Source: Oligoflexia bacterium (lineage in GTDB: Bacteria > Bdellovibrionota > Bdellovibrionia > JABDDW01). Taken from it: a DNA stretch of 64,000 bases. The notes under the pieces are model-generated. The model saw nothing but the letters and a program-made list of their open reading frames with translations, did not search any database and was not told the DNA's origin. Made by a program: the position numbers and the translations under genes. The DNA is taken from positions 171,767 to 235,766 of the forward strand of contig JADJXN010000014.1 of NCBI GenBank assembly GCA_016715815.1. The letters are read 5' to 3'. Below, piece by piece: positions 24,807 through 38,624 of this stretch; position 1 is the first letter of the stretch; each line of letters begins with the position of its first letter.

Positions 24807-25511
24807 ATGAAAAAACACAGCTTTTTATTTTTATTACCATTAGTTTTAGTAGCGGCATGCAAAAAAGAAATTTTTGGCCGCTTAGATGTGGCAAAGGAAT
24901 TTATTGTCAATAACCGTGTTGAAAAAGGTGGTTGGTTTTCTGATGATAAATATGAACTACAACCCGTGCCAGCAGGTAACTGGAAGGCAAGCCTAAAATT
25001 TGAAGATGATGTTAATGTTTGGCTTCTAATTGAAGATGGTTTTAGTAAAAAAGTTTCCCCCTTTAAACTCACTCAAGAGTTAAAAGATGCTTTTCAAAGT
25101 GAAACTGCAAATGGAGTTTATAATTTAAATAGCAAAGACTCTGGCCAACCATTAGATGTAAAAATAGATATTAAAACAAATGTTACCTATAGTGAGAGGC
25201 GCTGGGATAGAGAAACCTGCCAAGAATATGTGCCCTATCAGGTACAAGTTTGTAACACCAATCCCAATGGCCAAACAACGTGTCACTGGGAGACAAGATA
25301 CCACTACGTGCAAGGTGATAGAGAAGTTGAGTATTATTTAAAATGGGTTGATAAAAGCATTGCCACAGAATTTTTTGTAGCTACAAGAGAGGAAGCTGTA
25401 GCACGCATGCCGCTTCAGGATCGTGAACAATTTAAGATCACAACCTATCGTGGCCCTTGTCGTCTAGGTTATTATCCACCGTACCCAACATACCCACGGC
25501 AAAACTACTAA
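24807..25511 (+). CDS. hypothetical lipoprotein
   Basis: Lipobox LVLVAAC after signal peptide. Confidence 0.55.
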   Translation: MKKHSFLFLLPLVLVAACKKEIFGRLDVAKEFIVNNRVEKGGWFSDDKYELQPVPAGNWKASLKFEDDVNVWLLIEDGFSKKVSPFKLTQELKDAFQSETANGVYNLNSKDSGQPLDVKIDIKTNVTYSERRWDRETCQEYVPYQVQVCNTNPNGQTTCHWETRYHYVQGDREVEYYLKWVDKSIATEFFVATREEAVARMPLQDREQFKITTYRGPCRLGYYPPYPTYPRQNY

Positions 25512-25604: not shown

Positions 25605-27263
25605 ATGAACTTGTATGAGCATCTTGTGCTTTTATCTCTAGGTATCTGCTTTTTTATGTATGGAATGCAGCTTGCCGCTGACAATTTGCAAATTCTAATG
25701 GCAGAGCGCTTAAGACTCTTAATGGCTCAGCTCGCAAAACATAAAGTATTAGCCATTCTTAGTGGTATTCTCATTACCGTAATACTGCAGTCATCAGGTG
25801 CTGTCACTGTTATGCTTGTTAATTTAGCTAGTGCAGGGGTTGTAACCCTTCAGCAAGTTATGGGTGTAATAGTTGGAACCGCTGTTGGTACAACGGTAAC
25901 TGTGCAGCTTATTAGTTTTAAAATTACACAATACGCTCCCTATTTTTTAATTTTTGGTTTTTGCTTCTACTTCTTTCCAAATAAAAAACGCCTTAAAGAA
26001 ATTGGTAGTGTGTTCTTTGGTTTTGGTCTTATTTTTTACGGCCTACTTTTAATGGGAAGATCTGTTGAAGATGTTAAGCAAATAACAGAATTTCAAAATG
26101 TATTTAAATATCTTTCAGAAAATCCGTTTGTTGCCTTTATAGCAACTACCATTTTTACCTCTTTCATACATTCAAGTGCAGTCACTGTGGGTTTAGCAAT
26201 GACCCTTGTTGCGGGGGGAGTTATTTCTCTTCTTGATAGTATGTACTGGGTGGCAGGTGCTAATCTTGGAACCACCTCTACAGCACTTCTTGCAAGTTTT
26301 AACTCTAAGCATGCAGGTCGCCTTGTGGCTTGGGCTCACTTTTTTTACAAAGCTGCAAGTGTTGTGGTTTTTTTAATATTCGCTAAGCCCTTTGAAGGCT
26401 TAATGCTTCAATTAACATCTCAGCCAACACATCAAGTAGCAAACTCGCACACGTTGTTTAATATTTTTTCTGCTATTGTTTTTTACCCTTTTATTAATCT
26501 GGGCTCTACTATTATTGAAAAAATATTCCCTAAACCCACAAGTGAAAAAGAATTTGGTGCTAAATATTTAGACGTTAAAGCCTTTTCAGAGCCACACTTG
26601 GCTTATGCTAATGCTGTAAGAGAGCTTTTAAGAATGGTAGATTACACCTATGAAATGGTAAAGCTTTCTATTACAAGTTTTGAAAGAGATAGTCTTGATT
26701 TAATTGATGAAATTAAAAACATAGATAAAAAAGTAGACACCCTTAACCGCGAAATAAAACTATACTTAATAAGACTTGCTGATGAAAGTCTATCCAAAGC
26801 ACAAAAAACACGAGTTGTTAGCATGATAGCCCTTGTCAGTGACATTGAAAATATAGGGGATGTTATAGATAAAAATGTCTTAGTACTTGCAAGGAAAAAA
26901 TATAACCTCAAACTCACTTTTAGTGACCAAGGGTGGAGTGATGTTAAACTTTTCCATGAAAAGGTAATTAAAAACTTTGAAATGGCTGTTTCAGCTTTTA
27001 GCCTTGCTAGCCGAGAGCTTGCAGAAAAAGTTATTCAAAATAAGCATGAGATTAGAGTGCTTGAGCAAAAAATGCGCGAGGCACACATCCAAAGGCTTCA
27101 TTTAAAATTTCAGGAATCTTTTAACACTAGTAATATTCATCTTGATTTACTTTCAGCCTATAGAAGAGTGAATAGCTATGTTTGTAACCTTGCGTACCCA
27201 GTGCTCTTTTCAGATCCAAAATCTTTTGAAAGTGACATGGTCAAAACTAAATTCGAATCCTAA
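25605..27263 (+). CDS. Na+/phosphate cotransporter family protein with C-terminal PhoU-like domain
   Basis: Duplicated membrane repeat (QSSGAVTV / HSSAVTVG) and C-terminal helical PhoU-like region. Confidence 0.7.
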   Translation: MNLYEHLVLLSLGICFFMYGMQLAADNLQILMAERLRLLMAQLAKHKVLAILSGILITVILQSSGAVTVMLVNLASAGVVTLQQVMGVIVGTAVGTTVTVQLISFKITQYAPYFLIFGFCFYFFPNKKRLKEIGSVFFGFGLIFYGLLLMGRSVEDVKQITEFQNVFKYLSENPFVAFIATTIFTSFIHSSAVTVGLAMTLVAGGVISLLDSMYWVAGANLGTTSTALLASFNSKHAGRLVAWAHFFYKAASVVVFLIFAKPFEGLMLQLTSQPTHQVANSHTLFNIFSAIVFYPFINLGSTIIEKIFPKPTSEKEFGAKYLDVKAFSEPHLAYANAVRELLRMVDYTYEMVKLSITSFERDSLDLIDEIKNIDKKVDTLNREIKLYLIRLADESLSKAQKTRVVSMIALVSDIENIGDVIDKNVLVLARKKYNLKLTFSDQGWSDVKLFHEKVIKNFEMAVSAFSLASRELAEKVIQNKHEIRVLEQKMREAHIQRLHLKFQESFNTSNIHLDLLSAYRRVNSYVCNLAYPVLFSDPKSFESDMVKTKFES

Positions 27264-27423: not shown

Positions 27424-29079
27424 ATGATTAAGGGGTTAATCATTTATTTAATGCTCACAGTCTCTGTGAGTACATTTGCTCAAGCAAAAGATCTCAAAGA
27501 CTATTGGGAAGAAACAAAATTAAGTGCCACAGCTTTAAAGCATTTAATAAACAATGACAACTGCTACCAATCTGAAGACCAATACTTGGCTTGTTTGGCA
27601 GCTATACAAAAAATGGCTGAGGCTGAATTTAGCCAAGCATCTTTTGTAACAGGAACCTATTTATCAAGGCATTGGTTGGACTTGGTTTCAGTTGTAAAAA
27701 TGTGGCCAGGCATTAGCCTTATTCAGCCCGCCGAGATTGATAGAACAAAGGGTAAGATTAAAACCTGGCGTGAATTAAAAGCTCAAAAAACTGAAATAAA
27801 CAAAAGCTTTTTAGAATATTACAAATCTAATAGAAAAATAAACTTCCAAACTATTCATGACTACTTTTTGCCTCTGATAACTAAACATGAAATGCATAAG
27901 TATAAAGTAGCAGCAATTATTAATGCTTATAACGGCGTTATTTTTGACCCACATACCTACATTATTCCATTAAAGTTTTATGAAGATAGACAAAAAGCTA
28001 AAGAAACAAAGTTTTCTGGTGTGGGCATAATGTATGAAACTTTGGAAGGGAAACTTTATATTAAGAGGGTCCTTCCCAATAGCCCTGCAGCAAAAGCGGG
28101 AATTAAACCTAAAGATATTGTGACTCAATTAAATGAGTTATCAACGGGGGAGCTTTTTCAAACTGAAATTTCAGGAAAAATCAGAGGGCCCGAGGGAACT
28201 GAAATTGAGCTCACAATTGAACGACAAGAAACTCAGCTTAAGTTAAAAGTTACCAGAGGTGCTGTAGCGTACCCAAATGTGACGGTAAAAAAATATTCTG
28301 ACTACGGTTACATAGCGCTTGAAAACTTTGCAGATGATTCAGGTTGCTCAACTATGGCAGAGGCAATAAAAACTTTTGAGACTCAAAAAGTAAAAGGACT
28401 TGTTTTTGATCTTCGCGGTAATGGTGGGGGAATGATCTCCCAAGCAAACTGTATTATTGGTCTTTTTATAGGTAAAGGTAAAGTAGCTTATAAAGAAAGA
28501 TACTTAGATGAAAACAGTGACTTTAAAGAGTACAAAACTGAAAATGAAAAAGTAACTGATTTACCGCTAACAGTGCTTATTGATGGTAACTCAGCTAGTG
28601 CTTCTGAACTTGTGGCAATTGCTCTTCAAGATTACAAGCGTGGCTGGGTCTTGGGGGAGAGAAGTTTTGGTAAAGGTACAACGCAATCTGGTTTAGGCTT
28701 TATGTTAGCAGAAGAGGATATGCCTGTTACAGGCTTTCCTTTGCTAGCCTCCGTCAGTGGTATTTTAATGTTTACAACTCAATCTAAATTTTATTCTCCA
28801 AATGGATACACTAATCAGTTGGCAACTGTTGTGCCAGATTTTGAAGTGCCAACTTTTGAAAATGCCACAGAGGAAGACCGTTTTTATTTAAGGGAAGCTG
28901 ACCTTTATGCAAACGCCTTAAAAACAGACAACGAGCCTCGAAGTACTTTAAGGCCAGAAGAAGTGTCTAAGTTAAAACTTTGTTTAGAACCTAACATGAA
29001 AAACAATAAAAACTTATTTGATGAGGATTATCAAATCACCTACGCAGTGGAACTGCTAAAATGTGATGAGGCTATTTAA
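27424..29079 (+). CDS. S41-family C-terminal processing peptidase with PDZ domain
   Basis: Signal peptide; PDZ-like GIKPKDIV; S41 motif DLRGNGGG; catalytic Ser-region FGKGTTQS. Confidence 0.8.
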   Translation: MIKGLIIYLMLTVSVSTFAQAKDLKDYWEETKLSATALKHLINNDNCYQSEDQYLACLAAIQKMAEAEFSQASFVTGTYLSRHWLDLVSVVKMWPGISLIQPAEIDRTKGKIKTWRELKAQKTEINKSFLEYYKSNRKINFQTIHDYFLPLITKHEMHKYKVAAIINAYNGVIFDPHTYIIPLKFYEDRQKAKETKFSGVGIMYETLEGKLYIKRVLPNSPAAKAGIKPKDIVTQLNELSTGELFQTEISGKIRGPEGTEIELTIERQETQLKLKVTRGAVAYPNVTVKKYSDYGYIALENFADDSGCSTMAEAIKTFETQKVKGLVFDLRGNGGGMISQANCIIGLFIGKGKVAYKERYLDENSDFKEYKTENEKVTDLPLTVLIDGNSASASELVAIALQDYKRGWVLGERSFGKGTTQSGLGFMLAEEDMPVTGFPLLASVSGILMFTTQSKFYSPNGYTNQLATVVPDFEVPTFENATEEDRFYLREADLYANALKTDNEPRSTLRPEEVSKLKLCLEPNMKNNKNLFDEDYQITYAVELLKCDEAI

Positions 29080-29081
29080 GA

Positions 29082-30317
29082 ATGTTTAAAAAACTAGCGT
29101 TAATTTTATTAAGTATACTTTTATTTAATTCCAATGCTTCTTGGGCTACTGTTAATAAAAAATGTAATGTTTTATTTAGCATGTTTAACGTTCAAAATTT
29201 TATAAAACCGGATCCAACAGCATCAAATAAAAGTGTGCCCAAAGATGAAGCTAATCTTATTGCTAAAGCACAAAACCTTTCAAAGGCCATAGCAAAGTTA
29301 AATAAAAACAAAGGCCCTGATTTTATGGGCTTTGCTGAGATTGGTGGGCTTGAACATCTCCAATTATTACTTGAGCAGCCTGAAATGAAAAAGCGTGGTT
29401 ACAAGTATGTGGCTGTAAATGAAATTGATGCTGAAACCTCTCAGGCAAAAAGAATCATTCGTGTGGGATTTATTAGTAAGCTTAAAATTTTAAAAAAACC
29501 TAAGTCCCATGTTTATTGGGATCAAACGGATCCGCTTTGGGGAAATAGTAAATCAAGACCCATTTTAGAAGTTGTGCTTGAAATGCCAAATGGTGAGCCA
29601 GTGATTGTTTTTATTAATCATTGGGCCAGTAAACTTAAAGGTCAGTGGTCCATGTTAAGAAGGTATCAGGCAGGAGTATTTTTAAGAGAAAAGGTAGAAA
29701 AAATTCTAAATAAAAACCCAGATGCAAATATTATGATCATGGGAGATTTTAATACAGATCCTTCTTCAGTGGAAATTTTAACAGGCCTTCGTGCAACTCC
29801 AAACCCGGCGGATCCAGGATCTTCATACATAATAAATGAGAAGGAACTTTTATATAATCTGCATGATACTTTGGGCTCAAGGCGAGCTGACACAAAAGCC
29901 TTTAAGAAAAGATATCCGGAGGCCACAGGTGAGCAGTGGAAAAAGTTTTATGAAAAACTGGGCCGTAAATATGGCACTTACTATGACAGCACCAACCAAG
30001 TGTGGATGAATTTTAGGTTTGATATTTATAAATTCAGAGAAAAAAATCCTAATGCCACAAAAAAGGAGCTAGAAAACTTTTATGCAGATTTAGCAGAAAA
30101 ATATGCGGAAAACGTAGCCTCTAAACAAAACAATTGGGATGTTTTAGATCAAATTTTAGTTTCTAAAAACATGCTTCTTTATTTAGTAGAGAAAAGCTAC
30201 AAGCCCGTTCACACAAAACCATTTACAGATACCAAAGGGCACCCCAATGAATTTAACAATAAAACTAACAAAGGTCTTTCAGACCATTTACCCATTATTG
30301 TTGAATTTAGTTTTTAA
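29082..30317 (+). CDS. secreted endonuclease/exonuclease/phosphatase (EEP) family hydrolase
   Basis: Signal peptide; EEP-like motifs IMIMGDFNTDP and C-terminal SDHLPIIVEF. Confidence 0.65.
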   Translation: MFKKLALILLSILLFNSNASWATVNKKCNVLFSMFNVQNFIKPDPTASNKSVPKDEANLIAKAQNLSKAIAKLNKNKGPDFMGFAEIGGLEHLQLLLEQPEMKKRGYKYVAVNEIDAETSQAKRIIRVGFISKLKILKKPKSHVYWDQTDPLWGNSKSRPILEVVLEMPNGEPVIVFINHWASKLKGQWSMLRRYQAGVFLREKVEKILNKNPDANIMIMGDFNTDPSSVEILTGLRATPNPADPGSSYIINEKELLYNLHDTLGSRRADTKAFKKRYPEATGEQWKKFYEKLGRKYGTYYDSTNQVWMNFRFDIYKFREKNPNATKKELENFYADLAEKYAENVASKQNNWDVLDQILVSKNMLLYLVEKSYKPVHTKPFTDTKGHPNEFNNKTNKGLSDHLPIIVEFSF

Positions 30318-32381
30318 TTATTTGTATTGGTCAATCTGGCCAGCTCCATTGTAAACAGAAGGTGGCTTAATTGTGGGTGTTACTTGTGGGAAGCCCTCAT
30401 TAAAAAACTTAGAGGTTGGCTTAAAATTAGGCTGAGTTATAAATTCCCCTCTATCAAAAATAAGAACTTGAATGTCCCCATGCTCAGAAATAACTGCAAT
30501 AGAGTGGGACCAATTACTAAACCCACCTTTATTAAACTCTTGTTCTTTTAAAGACAAAGTTCCCACCTGAACATTTCTATTATTTCTCTCATCTCCATGG
30601 AAGTGACCGTGTACTGAGCCCTCTGTACCGCGCACAAAAGAGTTTATTGAACCCCTTGCACCATTTGCACCCTTATCACCATGTTCTGAAATTTCAACGG
30701 GTCTATGTTCTGGACCTACTTTGAATGAACCTTGAGGAAAAACAACCCTTTTATATTTATTTACTTTAGCTCCGCCATTAATTCCATTTAATAAAGCATA
30801 CTCAAATGGGTCTTGTCCTTTGGTGGCAGCTAATGCAAGCTCATTGTAAAGCTGTGCTGTATGGGGATAGCGCATGTAACTACCGCTTTGAAGCCACTTA
30901 ACCAACCAGTCAGGGTGATTTGAGCGCACCATAACAACATCAATATATGGATCAATTTCTAAAATGGCGTTAATGGTGTTAGCCATTTTGCCAATGCTTT
31001 TTGCAATATCAAGTTTTCCTTCGCTTGCAAGTTTTGCAAGTAAAATGCTTTTATCCTTATTATGATGGTTTAAAGGAACGCCATCCCATGCATCATGAAG
31101 CACAATTTTTAAGCGCTTATTGGTATTACCAGTGTACTTTCTGTATTTTTTAATTAAAGGCACTAGTTCTTGAAGAATATATTGTTCTGTTACCCCTTCA
31201 TGCAAATCTCCAAGTACAATTGTATCTGTATGTACTTTTAGGGTATTGGCAGCTGTATGTAAAATACCGTCATCAATAAAACCTTTTAATTCTGGCAAAA
31301 ATTCCAAATGTCTTGGGTGAAAGTTTCCTGCTATATCAAGACCAAAGTTTGATTTTGTATATTGAGTTTTTTCTAAATAAAGAGCGCCAACTACATGGTC
31401 GTTAGCTGCAATGCTATCTGTTCTTTTTGAAACATAAAGCTTTCCGGCATAGTTAGGATCTGTAATTGCCCCTGTTGTGTATAAATAGTGGGGGAATAAT
31501 GTATTATCTTTTGTTGGGACAGACTTTGTTCTTAACTGAGGAGAGGCAATGATTTGGCTGGTTCCGCGTTCCCACAAACGTTCAAGGCCCATAAGAGTAT
31601 TGATTTGTTTTGCCATAATTTTAGTATTATTTATGTTCCAATACTCGTTAAGTCTCACTTCATCTATAGACAAAAACACACGCTTGTTTTCTGAATCTAG
31701 TTTTTCTAAATATGGATCAAGTGCATAGGTTTCAAGGTTAACTACTTGAATAATAATTATAGCATCTTTTCTTTCTGCTAATGCCAAAAGCGCGTCCATC
31801 GCATCTTTATTAACATAGGCACCATTCACTGCTGATGTTACAATAACCCCACCCTTTGCTTGCTTAACGGCTTGCTCAATTCTTTTTCTTTTTTTAGGGC
31901 TTGAAAGCTCAGAATAAACTGCGTTTTTAACTGACTTATGTGTTTTTAAAACTAGCCTGTAAAGCTCGGTTCTGCTTTCAAACATTTTTCCAGGGCCTAT
32001 TAGTTTTTCAAAATCAATTTCAAGACCAGTTAGTTTAAAAATATAATTCATATCCTCAGCAAGGGGGGTTACGCCTTTATCTTTAGAAAATTCTGCATAA
32101 CTATCTACAATATCTTTTTTGGCTGATTCAAAAGCATCTGGATTTTTTTCTCTTACTTTATTTATTATTTCTGCAGAAGATGTTTGGGAAATATTTTCTA
32201 TACCAACTTCACTTGGCTCTTCAATGCCAAATAATTTTAAAAGATCTGATCTTGAATGGTTAATCTCAATATTTTCAACATGCACATCAGTAATTTGAGC
32301 AAGCCTTTTTGCACACTGGGGGAGCGCAAAACTTTTATGAGTGGCAATTAAAATTAAAGCTACTATTGCTAAATATTTCAA
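30318..32381 (-). CDS. secreted large protein with C-terminal metallophosphoesterase-like motifs
   Basis: Signal peptide; ordered motifs LGDLHEG, HDAWDG, RSNHPDW, HGHFHG resembling calcineurin-like phosphoesterases. Confidence 0.5.
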   Translation of the reverse strand: MKYLAIVALILIATHKSFALPQCAKRLAQITDVHVENIEINHSRSDLLKLFGIEEPSEVGIENISQTSSAEIINKVREKNPDAFESAKKDIVDSYAEFSKDKGVTPLAEDMNYIFKLTGLEIDFEKLIGPGKMFESRTELYRLVLKTHKSVKNAVYSELSSPKKRKRIEQAVKQAKGGVIVTSAVNGAYVNKDAMDALLALAERKDAIIIIQVVNLETYALDPYLEKLDSENKRVFLSIDEVRLNEYWNINNTKIMAKQINTLMGLERLWERGTSQIIASPQLRTKSVPTKDNTLFPHYLYTTGAITDPNYAGKLYVSKRTDSIAANDHVVGALYLEKTQYTKSNFGLDIAGNFHPRHLEFLPELKGFIDDGILHTAANTLKVHTDTIVLGDLHEGVTEQYILQELVPLIKKYRKYTGNTNKRLKIVLHDAWDGVPLNHHNKDKSILLAKLASEGKLDIAKSIGKMANTINAILEIDPYIDVVMVRSNHPDWLVKWLQSGSYMRYPHTAQLYNELALAATKGQDPFEYALLNGINGGAKVNKYKRVVFPQGSFKVGPEHRPVEISEHGDKGANGARGSINSFVRGTEGSVHGHFHGDERNNRNVQVGTLSLKEQEFNKGGFSNWSHSIAVISEHGDIQVLIFDRGEFITQPNFKPTSKFFNEGFPQVTPTIKPPSVYNGAGQIDQYK

Positions 32382-33451
32382 TTTCCACCTCCGGTTGCTT
32401 TAAGTAAGGCTAATGCACATTTTTCAGCTTTTGTTTTTGCTTTTTTAGAATGACCTAATACTTCTGCCTGTGTTGCGCGTCTAAATGTTCCATTAGAAGT
32501 AACAACTGCAAAGCGTGGGCGCCCAGAAGCATCAACATCTTTTTGATAGCCTGTATTAATTAGTGCAAATTTAATTCTATATTGTTTCCCTTGAGCATAT
32601 TTTTGAAATACTTTTGCAACCCTATCTAAGGTTTCTTGGTTATCTTCAGCAAAAACTAAAAAGTGGTAGGGTTCTTGTTTTGTGCCATCTGGGTTTAAAA
32701 CAACATCTTTTTCAGTTAGTGCTACTCTTCCTAAGCGGTCAATAAATTCTTCAAGTACGGCTGATTTTGCTAAATGTCTTTGTTCAACGCTGTAGTGCAA
32801 AGTAAATCTGTCAAATTCTGGCTTTGGTAAACCCATTATCCAATCAAGGTTGGGCATATTTTTAATATGGCCATCATTGATGAGTTGCTTAAAAAAGTTT
32901 CTCCATTCATTTTTAGTTTGTCCACGCATGGTGATGAAGCCCACATTTTTTGCATTTTCAGCATCACTTAAAACATGCTCGAAAAGTCCCCAAGCCTTGC
33001 CTTTCCAGTTTCCGCCTCTGGTTTTGCGAGCCTTAGCGTATTCCTCTAAAAGATAGTTCTCACCTTTTTCGCCTGGGAAATAAAATTTAAAAGAATCTTC
33101 TGTGCGTACATAGTAGTGGGCCGGTTCTATAACACGGCCGTCTTGCAGGGTTATTTTTTTACCAACAATGCCTTGTTCATCATAATTTTTTGCTAAATAG
33201 GGTTTAAGGCGCTCATCATAATCAGCCCAGCTCACTTGCACTTTATCTGGTATGGCTAGTTTTTCTTGAAACAAACTGCTTCTTCTAACAACGCGGTAAA
33301 GCTCAACTGTCCCTTGAAATGAGCCTTTAAACTCTTCTCTGTTTTCAACAATGGTATTATCAAAATCAAAGAAGTAAACTTTTGAAGCAAAGCTTACATC
33401 GCATATTAATGCGCTGAGCAATATGAATAGAACCTTCGTTTTTACTATCAT
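32378..33451 (-). CDS. secreted HAD-like hydrolase (putative phosphatase)
   Basis: Signal peptide followed by HAD motif I-like FFDFDNTIVEN; start overlaps upstream stop (ATGA). Confidence 0.5.
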   Translation of the reverse strand: MIVKTKVLFILLSALICDVSFASKVYFFDFDNTIVENREEFKGSFQGTVELYRVVRRSSLFQEKLAIPDKVQVSWADYDERLKPYLAKNYDEQGIVGKKITLQDGRVIEPAHYYVRTEDSFKFYFPGEKGENYLLEEYAKARKTRGGNWKGKAWGLFEHVLSDAENAKNVGFITMRGQTKNEWRNFFKQLINDGHIKNMPNLDWIMGLPKPEFDRFTLHYSVEQRHLAKSAVLEEFIDRLGRVALTEKDVVLNPDGTKQEPYHFLVFAEDNQETLDRVAKVFQKYAQGKQYRIKFALINTGYQKDVDASGRPRFAVVTSNGTFRRATQAEVLGHSKKAKTKAEKCALALLKATGGGN

Positions 33452-37961: not shown

Positions 37962-38624
37962 TTAGTAAGGATCAATTTTAAATATTTTATTCTCTGTTGG
38001 GGAATAAATTGCATTGAGTATTGAAAGGGTGGGATCAGCCTGTGCTGCTTGAACTAAAAGCTCTCCAATAGATTTTAATTTTTCTTTTGAAAAACCAAGT
38101 TCTTGTTCGAAAACAAAAACATCGCGTAGGGGAATTCCCTCTTTATATTCTAAAAGTAAAACACCTTTTGAGGTATCTATATCAAAAACCTGTGGCAGAT
38201 CTGGATCTGCATTATGCATTCTAAGATTTGTTTGAAAATTTATTTCGCCTTTAATTATTTTTGCTACTCTTAAATTGTTTTTTTGATCAGCTGAGTTTAC
38301 TAAATAAACACTTCCAATTTTACCTTGCCCGAGTATTTCAAGAACTTTTAGAGTTGTATTATTAAACTCAATCTCTGTCCCTATAGGGAGCAACCCCTTT
38401 TTTAATTTTGCCTCTCTTGAGAGTTCAAACCATTTTTTAACCTGTCTATCTACAGTGGTAAGTGGGTCAGCATCAGGGGCAAGCTTTGAAACTGATTTTA
38501 CACAAAATGGAATCCTTGGTTTTTTAGGGGGTTGTTGGGCAAAGCCCAAATTGGGCATAGCAATGCCTAAAAAGCATACAAGTAGTTGAAATATAAAGGT
38601 TTTAAGGGCTTTTAAAGCGATCAT
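37962..38624 (-). CDS. secreted protein resembling a protein-kinase N-lobe only (kinase-like fragment)
   Basis: Signal peptide; Gly-rich loop-like LGQGKIGSVYLV and VAKIIK; no catalytic loop or DFG before the stop. Confidence 0.45.
   Translation of the reverse strand: MIALKALKTFIFQLLVCFLGIAMPNLGFAQQPPKKPRIPFCVKSVSKLAPDADPLTTVDRQVKKWFELSREAKLKKGLLPIGTEIEFNNTTLKVLEILGQGKIGSVYLVNSADQKNNLRVAKIIKGEINFQTNLRMHNADPDLPQVFDIDTSKGVLLLEYKEGIPLRDVFVFEQELGFSKEKLKSIGELLVQAAQADPTLSILNAIYSPTENKIFKIDPY

What the first reader, a model, noticed from the sequence alone, without database searches (positions are those of the whole stretch)
29082..33451. Three adjacent secreted phosphoesterase-type hydrolases (EEP, metallophosphoesterase-like, HAD-like)
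Three consecutive genes each start with a signal peptide and each carries motifs of a different phosphoesterase superfamily: EEP (IMIMGDFNTDP, SDHLPIIVEF), calcineurin-like (GDLHEG, HDAWDG, SNHPDW, HGHFHG in the C-terminal half of a 687-aa protein with an unassigned ~350-aa N-terminal region), and HAD (FDFDNTIV). The last two overlap as ATGA, suggesting co-translation. This could be an exported nuclease/nucleotidase set for degrading extracellular or prey nucleic acids, or an uncharacterised signalling-nucleotide hydrolase module.
Basis: partly seen in the sequence, partly recalled or inferred. Interest (0 to 1): 0.55.

Follow-up and report, generated by a model that had tools for sequence, protein, structure and literature searches.

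The report
Exported phage-T5-A1-like DNase with phosphatase partner
A bacterium of the Bdellovibrio phylum carries, as a tightly linked two-gene operon with export signals, a relative of the phage T5 protein A1 that demolishes the host chromosome, together with a new HAD-type phosphatase; the neighbouring EEP nuclease gene is real but is not part of this unit.

Summary
The three ORFs and all quoted motifs exist. Details differ: gene 1 (EEP) is on the + strand and converges on the other two, and the overlap is TTGA (TTG start), not ATGA.

The superfamily guesses hold.
- g1 is an EEP nuclease by Pfam (9.4e-28).
- g2 has all the metallophosphoesterase (MPE) catalytic residues I checked, and its model matches MPE folds.
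- g3 has all four HAD motifs and a HAD-like fold.

A1 is reported necessary and sufficient for host DNA degradation.

g2 belongs to an unannotated single branch of A1 relatives (at least 48 clusters). This branch has a signal peptide, one conserved Cys, HTH-like modules in many members and a C-terminal tail. Labelled members come from Bdellovibrionota MAGs.

A g3 homologue lies directly upstream in 10 of 12 lineages examined. The EEP gene is adjacent nowhere else.

Best reading: an exported DNase plus nucleotide-phosphatase pair that degrades DNA outside the cytoplasm, analogous to T5 A1 plus Dmp. Activity, localisation and DNA source are untested. New variant of a known kind; interest 0.6.

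The parts
32378..33451 (-). g3: exported HAD-fold phosphatase of a new small family (357 aa). Signal peptide is aa 1-22 (nt 33386-33451). HAD motif I, D29-F-D31-N-T33, is at nt 33353-33367. Motif II is T174(-M-R176), motif III is K229 and motif IV is E269-D270. A large cap-like insert lies between motifs I and II. The single mature Cys is C345, in the C-terminal tail.
32378..32392 (-). g3/g2 junction: Shine-Dalgarno GGAGGTGG (32392-32385), g2 TTG start (32381-32379) overlapping the g3 TGA stop (32380-32378). This suggests translational coupling.
   Evidence: Sequence read directly. Orthologous junctions show an ATGA overlap or a 1-30 nt gap, each with a Shine-Dalgarno sequence.
30318..32381 (-). 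g2: exported homologue of phage T5 A1 (687 aa), a member of the long, signal-peptide-bearing branch of the family.
   Evidence: PHROG 1745 'DNA transfer protein' E=1e-60, residues 158-648 against profile positions 64-540 of 542. tblastn finds 1124 phage records annotated A1 or DNA transfer protein. BLASTP against T5 A1 gives 5e-15. The exhaustive profile search finds 2377 clusters. On an NJ tree one split holds 49 of 50 signal-peptide-bearing members.
32325..32381 (-). g2 signal peptide, aa 1-19 (MKYLAIVALILIATHKSFA|LP), followed by the conserved single Cys C23.
   Evidence: Hydrophobicity heuristic. 47 of 48 long-class representatives have a Cys about 5-15 residues after the h-region, and none fits a lipobox.
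31872..32312 (-). g2 N-terminal helical region, aa 24-170. It aligns with the tandem HTH-like modules of relatives ('R-L/I-P-S/T..E-L-A'), but is degenerate in the window protein.
   Evidence: 16 of 39 long-class members hit Pfam Sigma70_r3 (best 1.5e-16), and others hit HTH_3 or HNH_repeat. The family profile hits sigma-factor region 3 in PDB at E=0.007. The window protein alone gives no such hit.
31242..31859 (-). g2 N-domain of the A1 core, aa 175-380 (VTSAVNGA..., TTGAIT.PNY, RTD..A..H..GAL.LEK, FH.RH). It is shared with phage A1 and its function is unknown.
   Evidence: Covered by the PHROG 1745 match. Conserved columns are listed. The AF2 confidence is low in this region.
30432..31229 (-). 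g2 metallophosphoesterase domain, aa 385-650. Motif I is GD392-L-H394, motif II is H-D430-..-DG, motif III is S-N488-H489, motif IV is H567-G and motif V is G-H593-F-H595.
30321..30431 (-). g2 C-terminal tail, aa 651-687, with conserved FF..(F/Y)P...P......GQIDQY. It is specific to the long class and absent from T5 A1.
   Evidence: Invariant F659, F660, P665, P669, D684 and Q685 in A4. The T5 A1 alignment ends at residue 648.
29082..30317 (+). g1: exported EEP-family nuclease or phosphatase (411 aa) with an insert of about 120 aa before the last catalytic motif. It is a neighbour, not part of the conserved pair, and probably shares an operon with the S41 peptidase gene that ends at 29079.
   Evidence: Pfam PF19580 9.4e-28 (97.6 bits, cutoff 27) and PF03372 1.4e-5. 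Weak match to the ExeM/NucH extracellular endonuclease model, 8.3e-5. No homologue was found beside the pair in any other locus.

Best explanation
g3 and g2 form a conserved, translationally coupled two-gene operon. It encodes two Sec-exported enzymes that act together on DNA outside the cytoplasm.

g2 is a cellular, exported member of the phage T5 A1 family. It consists of a two-metal metallophosphoesterase domain, the A1-specific N-domain, and an N-terminal extension that in many relatives carries HTH modules. I infer that it binds and cleaves DNA, as A1 is thought to do to the E. coli chromosome.

g3 is a capped HAD-fold phosphatase. I infer that it removes phosphate from the nucleotides released, or from 3'-phosphate ends. 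This parallels the T5 pair of A1 plus the HAD-type dNMP phosphatase Dmp.

Each mature protein has one conserved Cys (g3 C-terminal tail, g2 N-terminus), so the two may be linked by a disulfide.

The DNA attacked is probably that of prey or neighbouring cells, or environmental DNA. The Bdellovibrionota distribution favours prey DNA, but this is not shown.

g1 is a separate exported EEP nuclease that happens to lie next to the pair in this lineage.

Shown: homology, conserved catalytic residues, folds, gene linkage and distribution. Inferred: export, DNase activity, the g3 substrate, complex formation and the biological target.
For: Homology of g2 to A1:
- PHROG 1745 E=1e-60 across almost the whole profile.
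- 1124 phage records annotated A1, DNA transfer protein or phosphodiesterase/nuclease.
- BLASTP against T5 A1 gives 5e-15, with all MPE motifs aligned.

Catalytic competence of g2:
- H394, D430, N488, H489, H567, H593 and H595 are invariant, and D392 is present in at least 90%, of 39 long-class sequences.

DNA as substrate:
- T5 A1 is reported necessary and sufficient for chromosome degradation in vivo (bioRxiv 10.64898/2026.04.02.716235).
- 16 of 39 long-class members carry Sigma70_r3-type HTH modules.

Export:
- Among the top 153 clusters, 48 long proteins have signal-peptide-like N-termini and 89 short, phage-like ones do not.
- The exported class is a single branch on an NJ tree.

Pairing of g3 with g2:
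- A g3 homologue lies immediately upstream of the long-class gene in the window, L001, L002, L010-L013 and L020-L022, in different neighbourhoods.
- Junctions range from a 4-nt overlap to a 30-nt gap, with a Shine-Dalgarno sequence.

g3 as a HAD phosphatase:
- Motifs I-IV are conserved.
- T5 Dmp also carries DxDGT, T-A-R and DD motifs.

Other support:
- A single conserved Cys occurs in each mature partner in all 7 pairs examined.
- The locus is chromosomal and stable, with housekeeping synteny and uniform GC content.
- Labelled long-class loci are Oligoflexia, Bacteriovoracaceae or Bdellovibrionota MAGs.
Against: - No in-vitro nuclease activity has been published even for T5 A1, and the authors leave open that A1 activates a host nuclease.
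- The window protein itself gives no HTH or Pfam hit. Its AF2 model is poor (pLDDT 55), so the fold match rests on a weak model.
- Signal peptides were judged by eye and by a hydrophobicity heuristic only. They could be uncleaved membrane anchors, and T5 A1 is reported to be membrane-associated.
- g3 is not detectably related to Dmp beyond motif I (hhalign probability 17.8%).
- Two long-class lineages, L019 and L023, lack g3 at the same syntenic site, so g3 is not obligatory.
- Predation is not established for this MAG. In the current NCBI taxonomy the class Oligoflexia holds Oligoflexales and Silvanigrellales, which to my knowledge are not known predators.
- From my own knowledge, Bdellovibrio is reported to take up nucleoside monophosphates intact, which does not fit a need for an exported nucleotidase.
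Confidence: 0.55

Rival explanations
1. One reading: all three genes (EEP, MPE, HAD) form one coordinated exported nuclease and nucleotidase set.
For: All three proteins carry signal-peptide-like N-termini and intact phosphoesterase motifs. They are physically adjacent, and each mature protein has exactly one Cys.
Against: No EEP homologue lies beside the pair in any of the other loci fetched. In the syntenic genome L001 the pair sits between the S41 peptidase and zapA genes with no EEP gene. g1 is on the opposite strand and follows the S41 peptidase gene after a 2-nt gap.
Confidence: 0.12
2. Nutrient scavenging rather than predation: the pair degrades environmental DNA in the periplasm or medium to supply phosphate and nucleosides, as Xds/Dns plus periplasmic phosphatases do in Vibrio (own knowledge).
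For: A Na/Pi cotransporter-PhoU gene lies two genes away in both the window (25605-27263) and L001. A nuclease combined with a phosphatase is the logic of phosphate release. Predation is unproven for this MAG.
Against: The phosphate-transporter neighbourhood is not conserved in L002, L010-L013, L019 or L023. No Pho-box or regulation data are available. This model differs from the best explanation only in the source of the DNA.
Confidence: 0.2
3. g2 is a metallophosphoesterase acting on something other than DNA (lipid or sugar nucleotides, cyclic or signalling nucleotides, or phosphoproteins), and g3 dephosphorylates its product.
Against: Full-length homology to A1 includes the N-domain, not just the MPE core. 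The A1 phenotype is DNA degradation. HTH and Sigma70_r3 modules are present in 16 of 39 close relatives.
Confidence: 0.1
4. g2 acts in moving DNA across the envelope (uptake or transfer) rather than in bulk degradation, echoing the requirement for A1 in T5 second-step DNA transfer.
For: T5 A1 is required for second-step transfer and is membrane-associated. g2 has an N-terminal hydrophobic segment and, in relatives, DNA-binding modules.
Against: No homologue of A2, the T5 partner needed for transfer, is present in the window or fused to g2. The pairing with a phosphatase fits catabolism better. No competence or secretion genes were seen beside the pair in the loci whose neighbours I checked.
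Confidence: 0.05

Closest known systems
Phage T5 A1 protein (T5.004; PHROG 1745 'DNA transfer protein'; a hallmark of Demerecviridae)
   Same: Homologous over the whole A1 core, meaning the N-domain plus the MPE domain. All MPE metal-binding motifs and the family-specific NHH and HG.G.NG.RG motifs are shared.
   Different: g2 is chromosomal in a bacterium, at a stable housekeeping locus. It has a signal peptide, a conserved N-terminal Cys, an N-terminal helical or HTH extension and a C-terminal GQIDQY tail, none of which T5 A1 has. There is no A2 partner. It is paired with g3 instead. Identity to T5 A1 is about 25%.
Phage T5 Dmp (deoxynucleoside-5'-monophosphatase), the HAD-type partner of A1 in host DNA catabolism
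   Same: Both are DxDxT HAD-type proteins with a T-x-R motif II and an acidic motif IV. Both are encoded near an A1-family gene; in Vibrio phage D239 the two genes are adjacent. Dmp homologues are sometimes annotated 'polynucleotide kinase', and two of g3's three best structural matches are Pnkp phosphatase domains.
   Different: No detectable specific homology: hhalign aligns motif I only, with probability 17.8%, and the Dmp profile finds nothing in the window. g3 is 357 aa with a signal peptide and an insert of about 135 aa after motif I. The gene order is g3 then g2, whereas in T5 A1 precedes dmp.
Mre11/SbcD and PolD DP1 metallophosphoesterase nucleases
   Different: There is no sequence-level match, no Rad50/SbcC partner and no capping domain detected. 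g2 is exported.
T4 Pnkp and Clostridium Pnkp1 HAD 3'-phosphatase domains
   Different: Identity is about 8-10%. Those domains are capless and act on polynucleotide ends, whereas g3 has a large insert after motif I, which usually goes with small-molecule substrates (own knowledge). g3 has no kinase domain.
Exported EEP nucleases of the ExeM/NucH/Xds type (for g1)
   Same: An EEP domain (PF19580, 9.4e-28), a signal peptide and a weak match to the ExeM/NucH model.
   Different: The match to NF033681 is far below its cutoff (21.6 against 300 bits). g1 lacks the extra domains of ExeM and Xds and has an insert of about 120 aa.
Known Bdellovibrio secreted nucleases (Bd0934, Bd3507, Bd1244, Bd1934)
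   Same: Exported nucleases of a predatory lineage, proposed to act on prey or biofilm DNA (PMC7925074 and PMC3593177, listed).
   Different: No paper in that search contains the word 'metallophosphoesterase', and none is about an A1-like enzyme. I did not compare the sequences.

Membership tests
T5 A1 family (PHROG 1745) | Full-length profile match covering the N-domain and the MPE domain | tested here: met
   E=1e-60, residues 158-648 against profile positions 64-540 of 542. tblastn finds 1124 phage records.
T5 A1 family (PHROG 1745) | Phage-encoded cytoplasmic pre-early protein working with the DNA-binding partner A2 | tested here: not met
   The locus is a chromosomal housekeeping one with conserved synteny. 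g2 has a signal-peptide-like N-terminus. No A2 homologue is present in the window or fused to g2.
T5 A1 family (PHROG 1745) | Causes degradation of cellular DNA | not testable with these tools
   This is known only for T5 A1 in vivo. It needs an enzyme assay or expression test.
Calcineurin-like metallophosphoesterase superfamily | Five metal-binding motifs: DxH, GD, GNH, H and GHxH | tested here: met
   D392/H394, D430, N488/H489, H567 and H593/H595. Seven are invariant and D392 is present in at least 90% of 39 sequences.
Calcineurin-like metallophosphoesterase superfamily | Pfam PF00149 or PF12850 match above the gathering score | tested here: not met
   The window protein gives no hit. Five of 39 relatives hit PF00149, best 8.4e-5; the scores shown for individual relatives fall just below the 21.5-bit cutoff. 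PHROG 221 'metallo-phosphoesterase' is hit by relatives at 7e-9.
Calcineurin-like metallophosphoesterase superfamily | MPE beta-sandwich fold | tested here: met
HAD superfamily (for g3) | Motifs I (DxDxT), II (S/T), III (K/R) and IV (acidic pair) | tested here: met
   D29 is invariant. D31 is present in 8 of 9 and T33 in 8 of 9. T174 and K229 are invariant. E/D269 is present in 9 of 9 and D270 in 8 of 9.
HAD superfamily (for g3) | Profile match to a curated HAD family | tested here: not met
   No Pfam, NCBIfam or PHROG hit at E<0.01.
HAD superfamily (for g3) | Rossmann-like HAD core fold | tested here: inconclusive
T5 Dmp family (for g3) | Detectable homology beyond the generic HAD motif I | tested here: not met
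   hhalign of A5 against A6 gives probability 17.8% over 18 columns. The Dmp profile finds nothing in the window.
Endonuclease/exonuclease/phosphatase (EEP) superfamily (for g1) | Pfam domain above the gathering score, plus the GDFN and SDH catalytic motifs | tested here: met
   PF19580 scores 97.6 bits against a cutoff of 27, and PF03372 scores 25.4 against 24.5. The motifs are read directly from the translation.
Sec-exported proteins (all three) | Cleavable N-terminal signal peptide | tested here: inconclusive
   Only a hydrophobicity and AXA heuristic was available. The feature is conserved across orthologues. No dedicated predictor or experiment was available.

The most novel reading that the evidence does not exclude
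Bacteria of the Bdellovibrio phylum and T5-like phages, two kinds of killers of bacteria, use the same chromosome-demolition enzyme. On this reading the exported A1 branch, with its DNA-binding modules and a disulfide-linked HAD nucleotidase, is the main machine that destroys prey DNA. Because it is naturally soluble and exported, it would also offer a workable route to the still-undemonstrated biochemistry of A1.
Probability: 0.25. Interest if true: 0.78.

Novelty: new variant of a known kind. Interest (0 to 1): 0.6.

Why it matters
T5 A1 has been known genetically for decades. A 2026 preprint reports it as necessary and sufficient for destroying the host chromosome, but its activity has not been shown in vitro, and it is described as mainly a Demerecviridae protein.

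Here the family turns out to be much wider: 2377 clusters at 50% identity. It includes a single cellular branch whose members all carry export signals, found in Bdellovibrionota MAGs and annotated only as 'hypothetical protein'.

If these proteins are exported DNases, they are candidate prey-DNA or eDNA degrading enzymes of a kind not yet reported for predatory bacteria. They would also show the same protein family used by a phage and by a cellular lineage. The g3 partner defines a new HAD family with no curated model.

In practical terms, the exported versions may be easier to purify and assay than the toxic phage protein.

Tried and rejected
**No curated or solved-structure match**
- Pfam, NCBIfam and PDB sequence searches on g2 and g3 gave nothing significant.
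- A family-profile search against PDB gave only a marginal hit to sigma-factor region 3.

**Limits of the homologue searches**
- The word-indexed search found only 5 relatives for each protein, even when given a profile. The exhaustive profile search was needed to see the family.

**Hypotheses tested and rejected**
- The g2 N-terminal extension as a fused T5 A2: hhalign probability 0.4%.
- g3 as an orthologue of T5 Dmp: rejected at the level these tools can see.
- The EEP gene as a conserved third partner.
- A conserved phosphate-related neighbourhood. Neighbours elsewhere are a Mur ligase, a small signal-peptide protein and squalene-hopene cyclase.
- The conserved N-terminal Cys as a lipoprotein site: no lipobox is present.
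- Inverted repeats that could explain the inversion of the cassette relative to L001: only short, AT-rich chance-level matches.

**Scans and jobs that gave little or failed**
- The promoter and terminator scan found no more than shuffled sequence does.
- The metagenome scan with the g3 alignment found nothing.
- Alignments A3 and A5 were too diverse to seed locus scans.
- The afdb50 fold library was unavailable.
- The Foldseek search of g3 against viral structures gave only weak hits, TM 0.2-0.3.

Full report
**1. Checking the observation**

- g1: 29082-30317 (+), 411 aa.
- g2: 30318-32381 (-), 687 aa.
- g3: 32378-33451 (-), 357 aa.

All the quoted peptide motifs are present. Each protein begins with a short charged n-region, a hydrophobic stretch of 10-12 residues and an (A/S)-x-A site, so export is plausible. 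I could judge this only heuristically.

Two details are wrong.
- The genes are not one co-oriented row. g1 is on the + strand and converges on g2, with abutting stop codons (TAA|TTA). On the - strand the HAD-like gene precedes the MPE gene.
- The 4-nt overlap reads TTGA. g2 starts at TTG, seven bases after GGAGGTGG, and has no in-frame ATG upstream. Relatives do have ATGA at this junction (L002, L003, L010).

**2. Superfamily assignments**

g1 is a bona fide EEP protein: Pfam PF19580 at 9.4e-28 and PF03372 above its cutoff.

g2 and g3 hit no Pfam, NCBIfam or PDB sequence. Deeper tests rescue both assignments.

For g2:
- The MPE residues H394, D430, N488, H489, H567, H593 and H595 are invariant, and D392 is present in at least 90%, of 39 related sequences.
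- Some relatives reach Pfam Metallophos and PHROG 221 'metallo-phosphoesterase' at sub-threshold to good E-values.

For g3:
- Nine orthologues conserve HAD motif I (D29 invariant, D31 and T33 each in 8 of 9), motif II (T174, usually T-x-R), motif III (K229) and motif IV (E/D269-D270).

**3. What g2 really is**

Scanning against PHROGs showed that residues 158-648 of g2 match almost the whole profile of PHROG 1745, 'DNA transfer protein', at E=1e-60. tblastn found 1124 phage records whose matching genes are annotated A1, A1-like, DNA transfer protein or phosphodiesterase/nuclease. BLASTP against T5 A1 itself gives 5e-15, with every MPE motif aligned. So the 'unassigned' N-terminal half is mostly the A1-specific N-domain.

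According to a 2026 preprint, A1 is a predicted metallo-phosphatase that is essential for T5. It is both necessary and sufficient for degradation of the E. coli chromosome in vivo. Its nuclease activity has not yet been shown in vitro, and it is described as mainly a Demerecviridae protein (bioRxiv 10.64898/2026.04.02.716235). An earlier preprint records that A1 is membrane-associated and, together with A2, is needed for second-step DNA transfer (10.1101/866236).

**4. A distinct exported branch of the family**

The word-indexed search found only five relatives. An exhaustive profile search over 1.84 billion representatives found 2377 clusters, 1565 of them at E<=1e-30.

Among the best 153 clusters:
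- 89 are short (about 430-560 aa) and lack a hydrophobic N-terminus. Their N-termini vary and include Zn-ribbons and HTH modules, as in phage proteins.
- 48 are long (about 630-830 aa) and have a signal-peptide-like N-terminus.

On an NJ tree of 463 core columns, a single split holds 49 of the 50 signal-peptide-bearing sequences plus one truncated fragment. There are no support values.

The long class has three further features.
- A nearly invariant Cys lies about 5-15 residues after the hydrophobic region (47 of 48). It is often the only Cys in the mature protein and never sits in a lipobox.
- An N-terminal extension hits Pfam Sigma70_r3 in 16 of 39 members (best 1.5e-16), with occasional HTH_3 and HNH_repeat hits. 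The window protein keeps only a degenerate copy with no hit of its own.
- A conserved C-terminal tail, FF..YP...P...GQIDQY, is absent from T5 A1.

Every member that carries a name is called 'hypothetical protein'. The taxonomically labelled loci are Oligoflexia, Bacteriovoracaceae, Bdellovibrionota or old-style 'Deltaproteobacteria' MAGs. The window itself comes from an 'Oligoflexia bacterium' MAG.

**5. The conserved unit is the g3-g2 pair, not the trio**

A g3 homologue lies immediately upstream of the long-class gene in these loci:
- the window and its close relatives (about 75-77% identical; L003-L006);
- L001/L009 (45% and 42% identity);
- L002 (34% and 32%);
- L010, L011, L012 and L013;
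- the metagenome contigs L020-L022.

The surrounding genes differ between these loci. Junctions range from a 4-nt overlap to a 30-nt gap, always with a Shine-Dalgarno sequence. None of the short, phage-like loci has a g3 homologue.

Two long-class lineages, L019 and L023, lack g3. They share the synteny of L011 and L013 (Mur ligase, small signal-peptide protein, [g3], g2, squalene-hopene cyclase). g3 is therefore frequent but dispensable.

No EEP homologue lies beside the pair anywhere else. In L001 the pair sits between the same S41-peptidase and zapA genes as in the window. There it is in the opposite orientation, and there is no EEP gene.

The locus is ordinary chromosome. It is flanked by ftsY, a Na/Pi transporter gene, an S41 peptidase gene, zapA, rny and tyrS, and GC content is uniform.

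**6. How it most likely works**

The established points are that g2 is an A1-family enzyme with an intact two-metal centre, that g3 is a HAD-type enzyme with an intact nucleophile, that both carry export-type N-termini, and that the two genes are tightly and repeatedly linked.

From these I infer the following.
- The pair is exported.
- g2 binds and cleaves DNA, helped in many relatives by HTH modules.
- g3, whose large insert after motif I suggests a small-molecule substrate, dephosphorylates the nucleotides released, or possibly 3'-phosphate ends.

This mirrors the logic of T5, where A1 drives DNA breakdown and the HAD-type Dmp converts dNMPs to nucleosides. Dmp also carries DxDGT, T-A-R and DD motifs, and its homologues are sometimes annotated 'polynucleotide kinase'. 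However, g3 is not detectably homologous to Dmp beyond motif I. The parallel is therefore functional and does not demonstrate common descent.

Each mature partner has a single conserved Cys, in the g3 C-terminal tail and at the g2 N-terminus, in all seven pairs examined. This suggests an intermolecular disulfide, but that is untested.

Whether the target is prey DNA, competitor DNA or environmental DNA cannot be decided. The phylum favours prey. The nearby Na/Pi transporter in two genomes hints at phosphate scavenging, but it is not conserved elsewhere. Predation is not established for this MAG.

**7. Rivals**

- The trio-as-module model is contradicted by gene distribution.
- A non-DNA substrate remains possible, because MPE enzymes are diverse and the window protein has no recognisable HTH module.
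- A role in DNA transfer is unlikely without A2.
- The signalling-nucleotide idea has no support.

**8. Novelty**

The enzymes belong to known superfamilies, and g2 belongs to a known phage family. What appears new is a cellular, exported, single-branch group of the A1 family, with its own added modules and a dedicated HAD partner from a family that has no curated model.

The literature searches found papers on other secreted Bdellovibrio nucleases. None of them concerned an A1-like or MPE enzyme.

I rate this as a new variant of a known kind, with interest 0.6. It is a coherent and testable link between a phage host-takeover enzyme and a lineage of bacteria-killing bacteria, but it rests entirely on computation.

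Noticed in passing
window 30318-33451 compared with L001 8899-12055: The g3-g2 cassette sits between the same S41-peptidase and zapA genes in both genomes but in opposite orientation. In the window it is divergent from zapA, and in L001 it is co-directional with it. No flanking inverted repeats explain the inversion.
   Followed up: partly
window 29082-30317, 30318-32381 and 32378-33451: Each of the three mature exported proteins has exactly one cysteine: g1 C28, g2 C23 and g3 C345. For g2 and g3 the Cys is conserved across orthologues. For g1 conservation could not be checked.
   Followed up: partly
L019 3644-5734 and L023 3620-5755: Two long-class A1-like genes, each with a signal peptide and the conserved Cys, lack the upstream g3 gene. 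They otherwise share the Mur-ligase, small signal-peptide protein and squalene-hopene-cyclase synteny of L011 and L013, which points to loss or relocation of g3.
   Followed up: partly
L014-L018 (Buchananbacteria, Portnoybacteria, a Gammaproteobacteria MAG and a Woesearchaeota MAG): Short A1-like genes of about 460 aa occur on contigs assigned to CPR bacteria and to an archaeon. They may be prophages or binned phage contigs.
   Followed up: no
P0069 (1158 aa), P0110 (840 aa), P0156 (760 aa): Unusually long A1-family members without signal peptides. They have extra N- or C-terminal regions, and P0110 and P0156 have the A1 core at the N-terminus. Their domain content was not examined.
   Followed up: no
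window 24807-25511 (+): A 234-aa ORF with a lipoprotein-type N-terminus (LVLVAAC) lies between ftsY and the Na/Pi transporter gene. In L001 these two genes are adjacent with no gene between them.
   Followed up: no
window 37962-38624 (-): A 220-aa ORF with a signal-peptide-like N-terminus contains a protein-kinase-like glycine loop and lysine (GQGKIGSVYLV...VAKIIK). It is too short to be a full kinase domain.
   Followed up: no
L101 1-885 (Vibrio phage D239): The A1 ('DNA transfer protein') gene is followed 80 nt later by the Dmp-like gene, which is annotated 'polynucleotide kinase'. A1 and a HAD-phosphatase gene are therefore adjacent in some phages too.
   Followed up: partly
window 30309-30324: The convergent g1 and g2 genes end back to back with no intergenic base (TAA|TTA, within a 16-nt imperfect palindrome). 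Any transcription terminator must lie inside the opposing gene.
   Followed up: no
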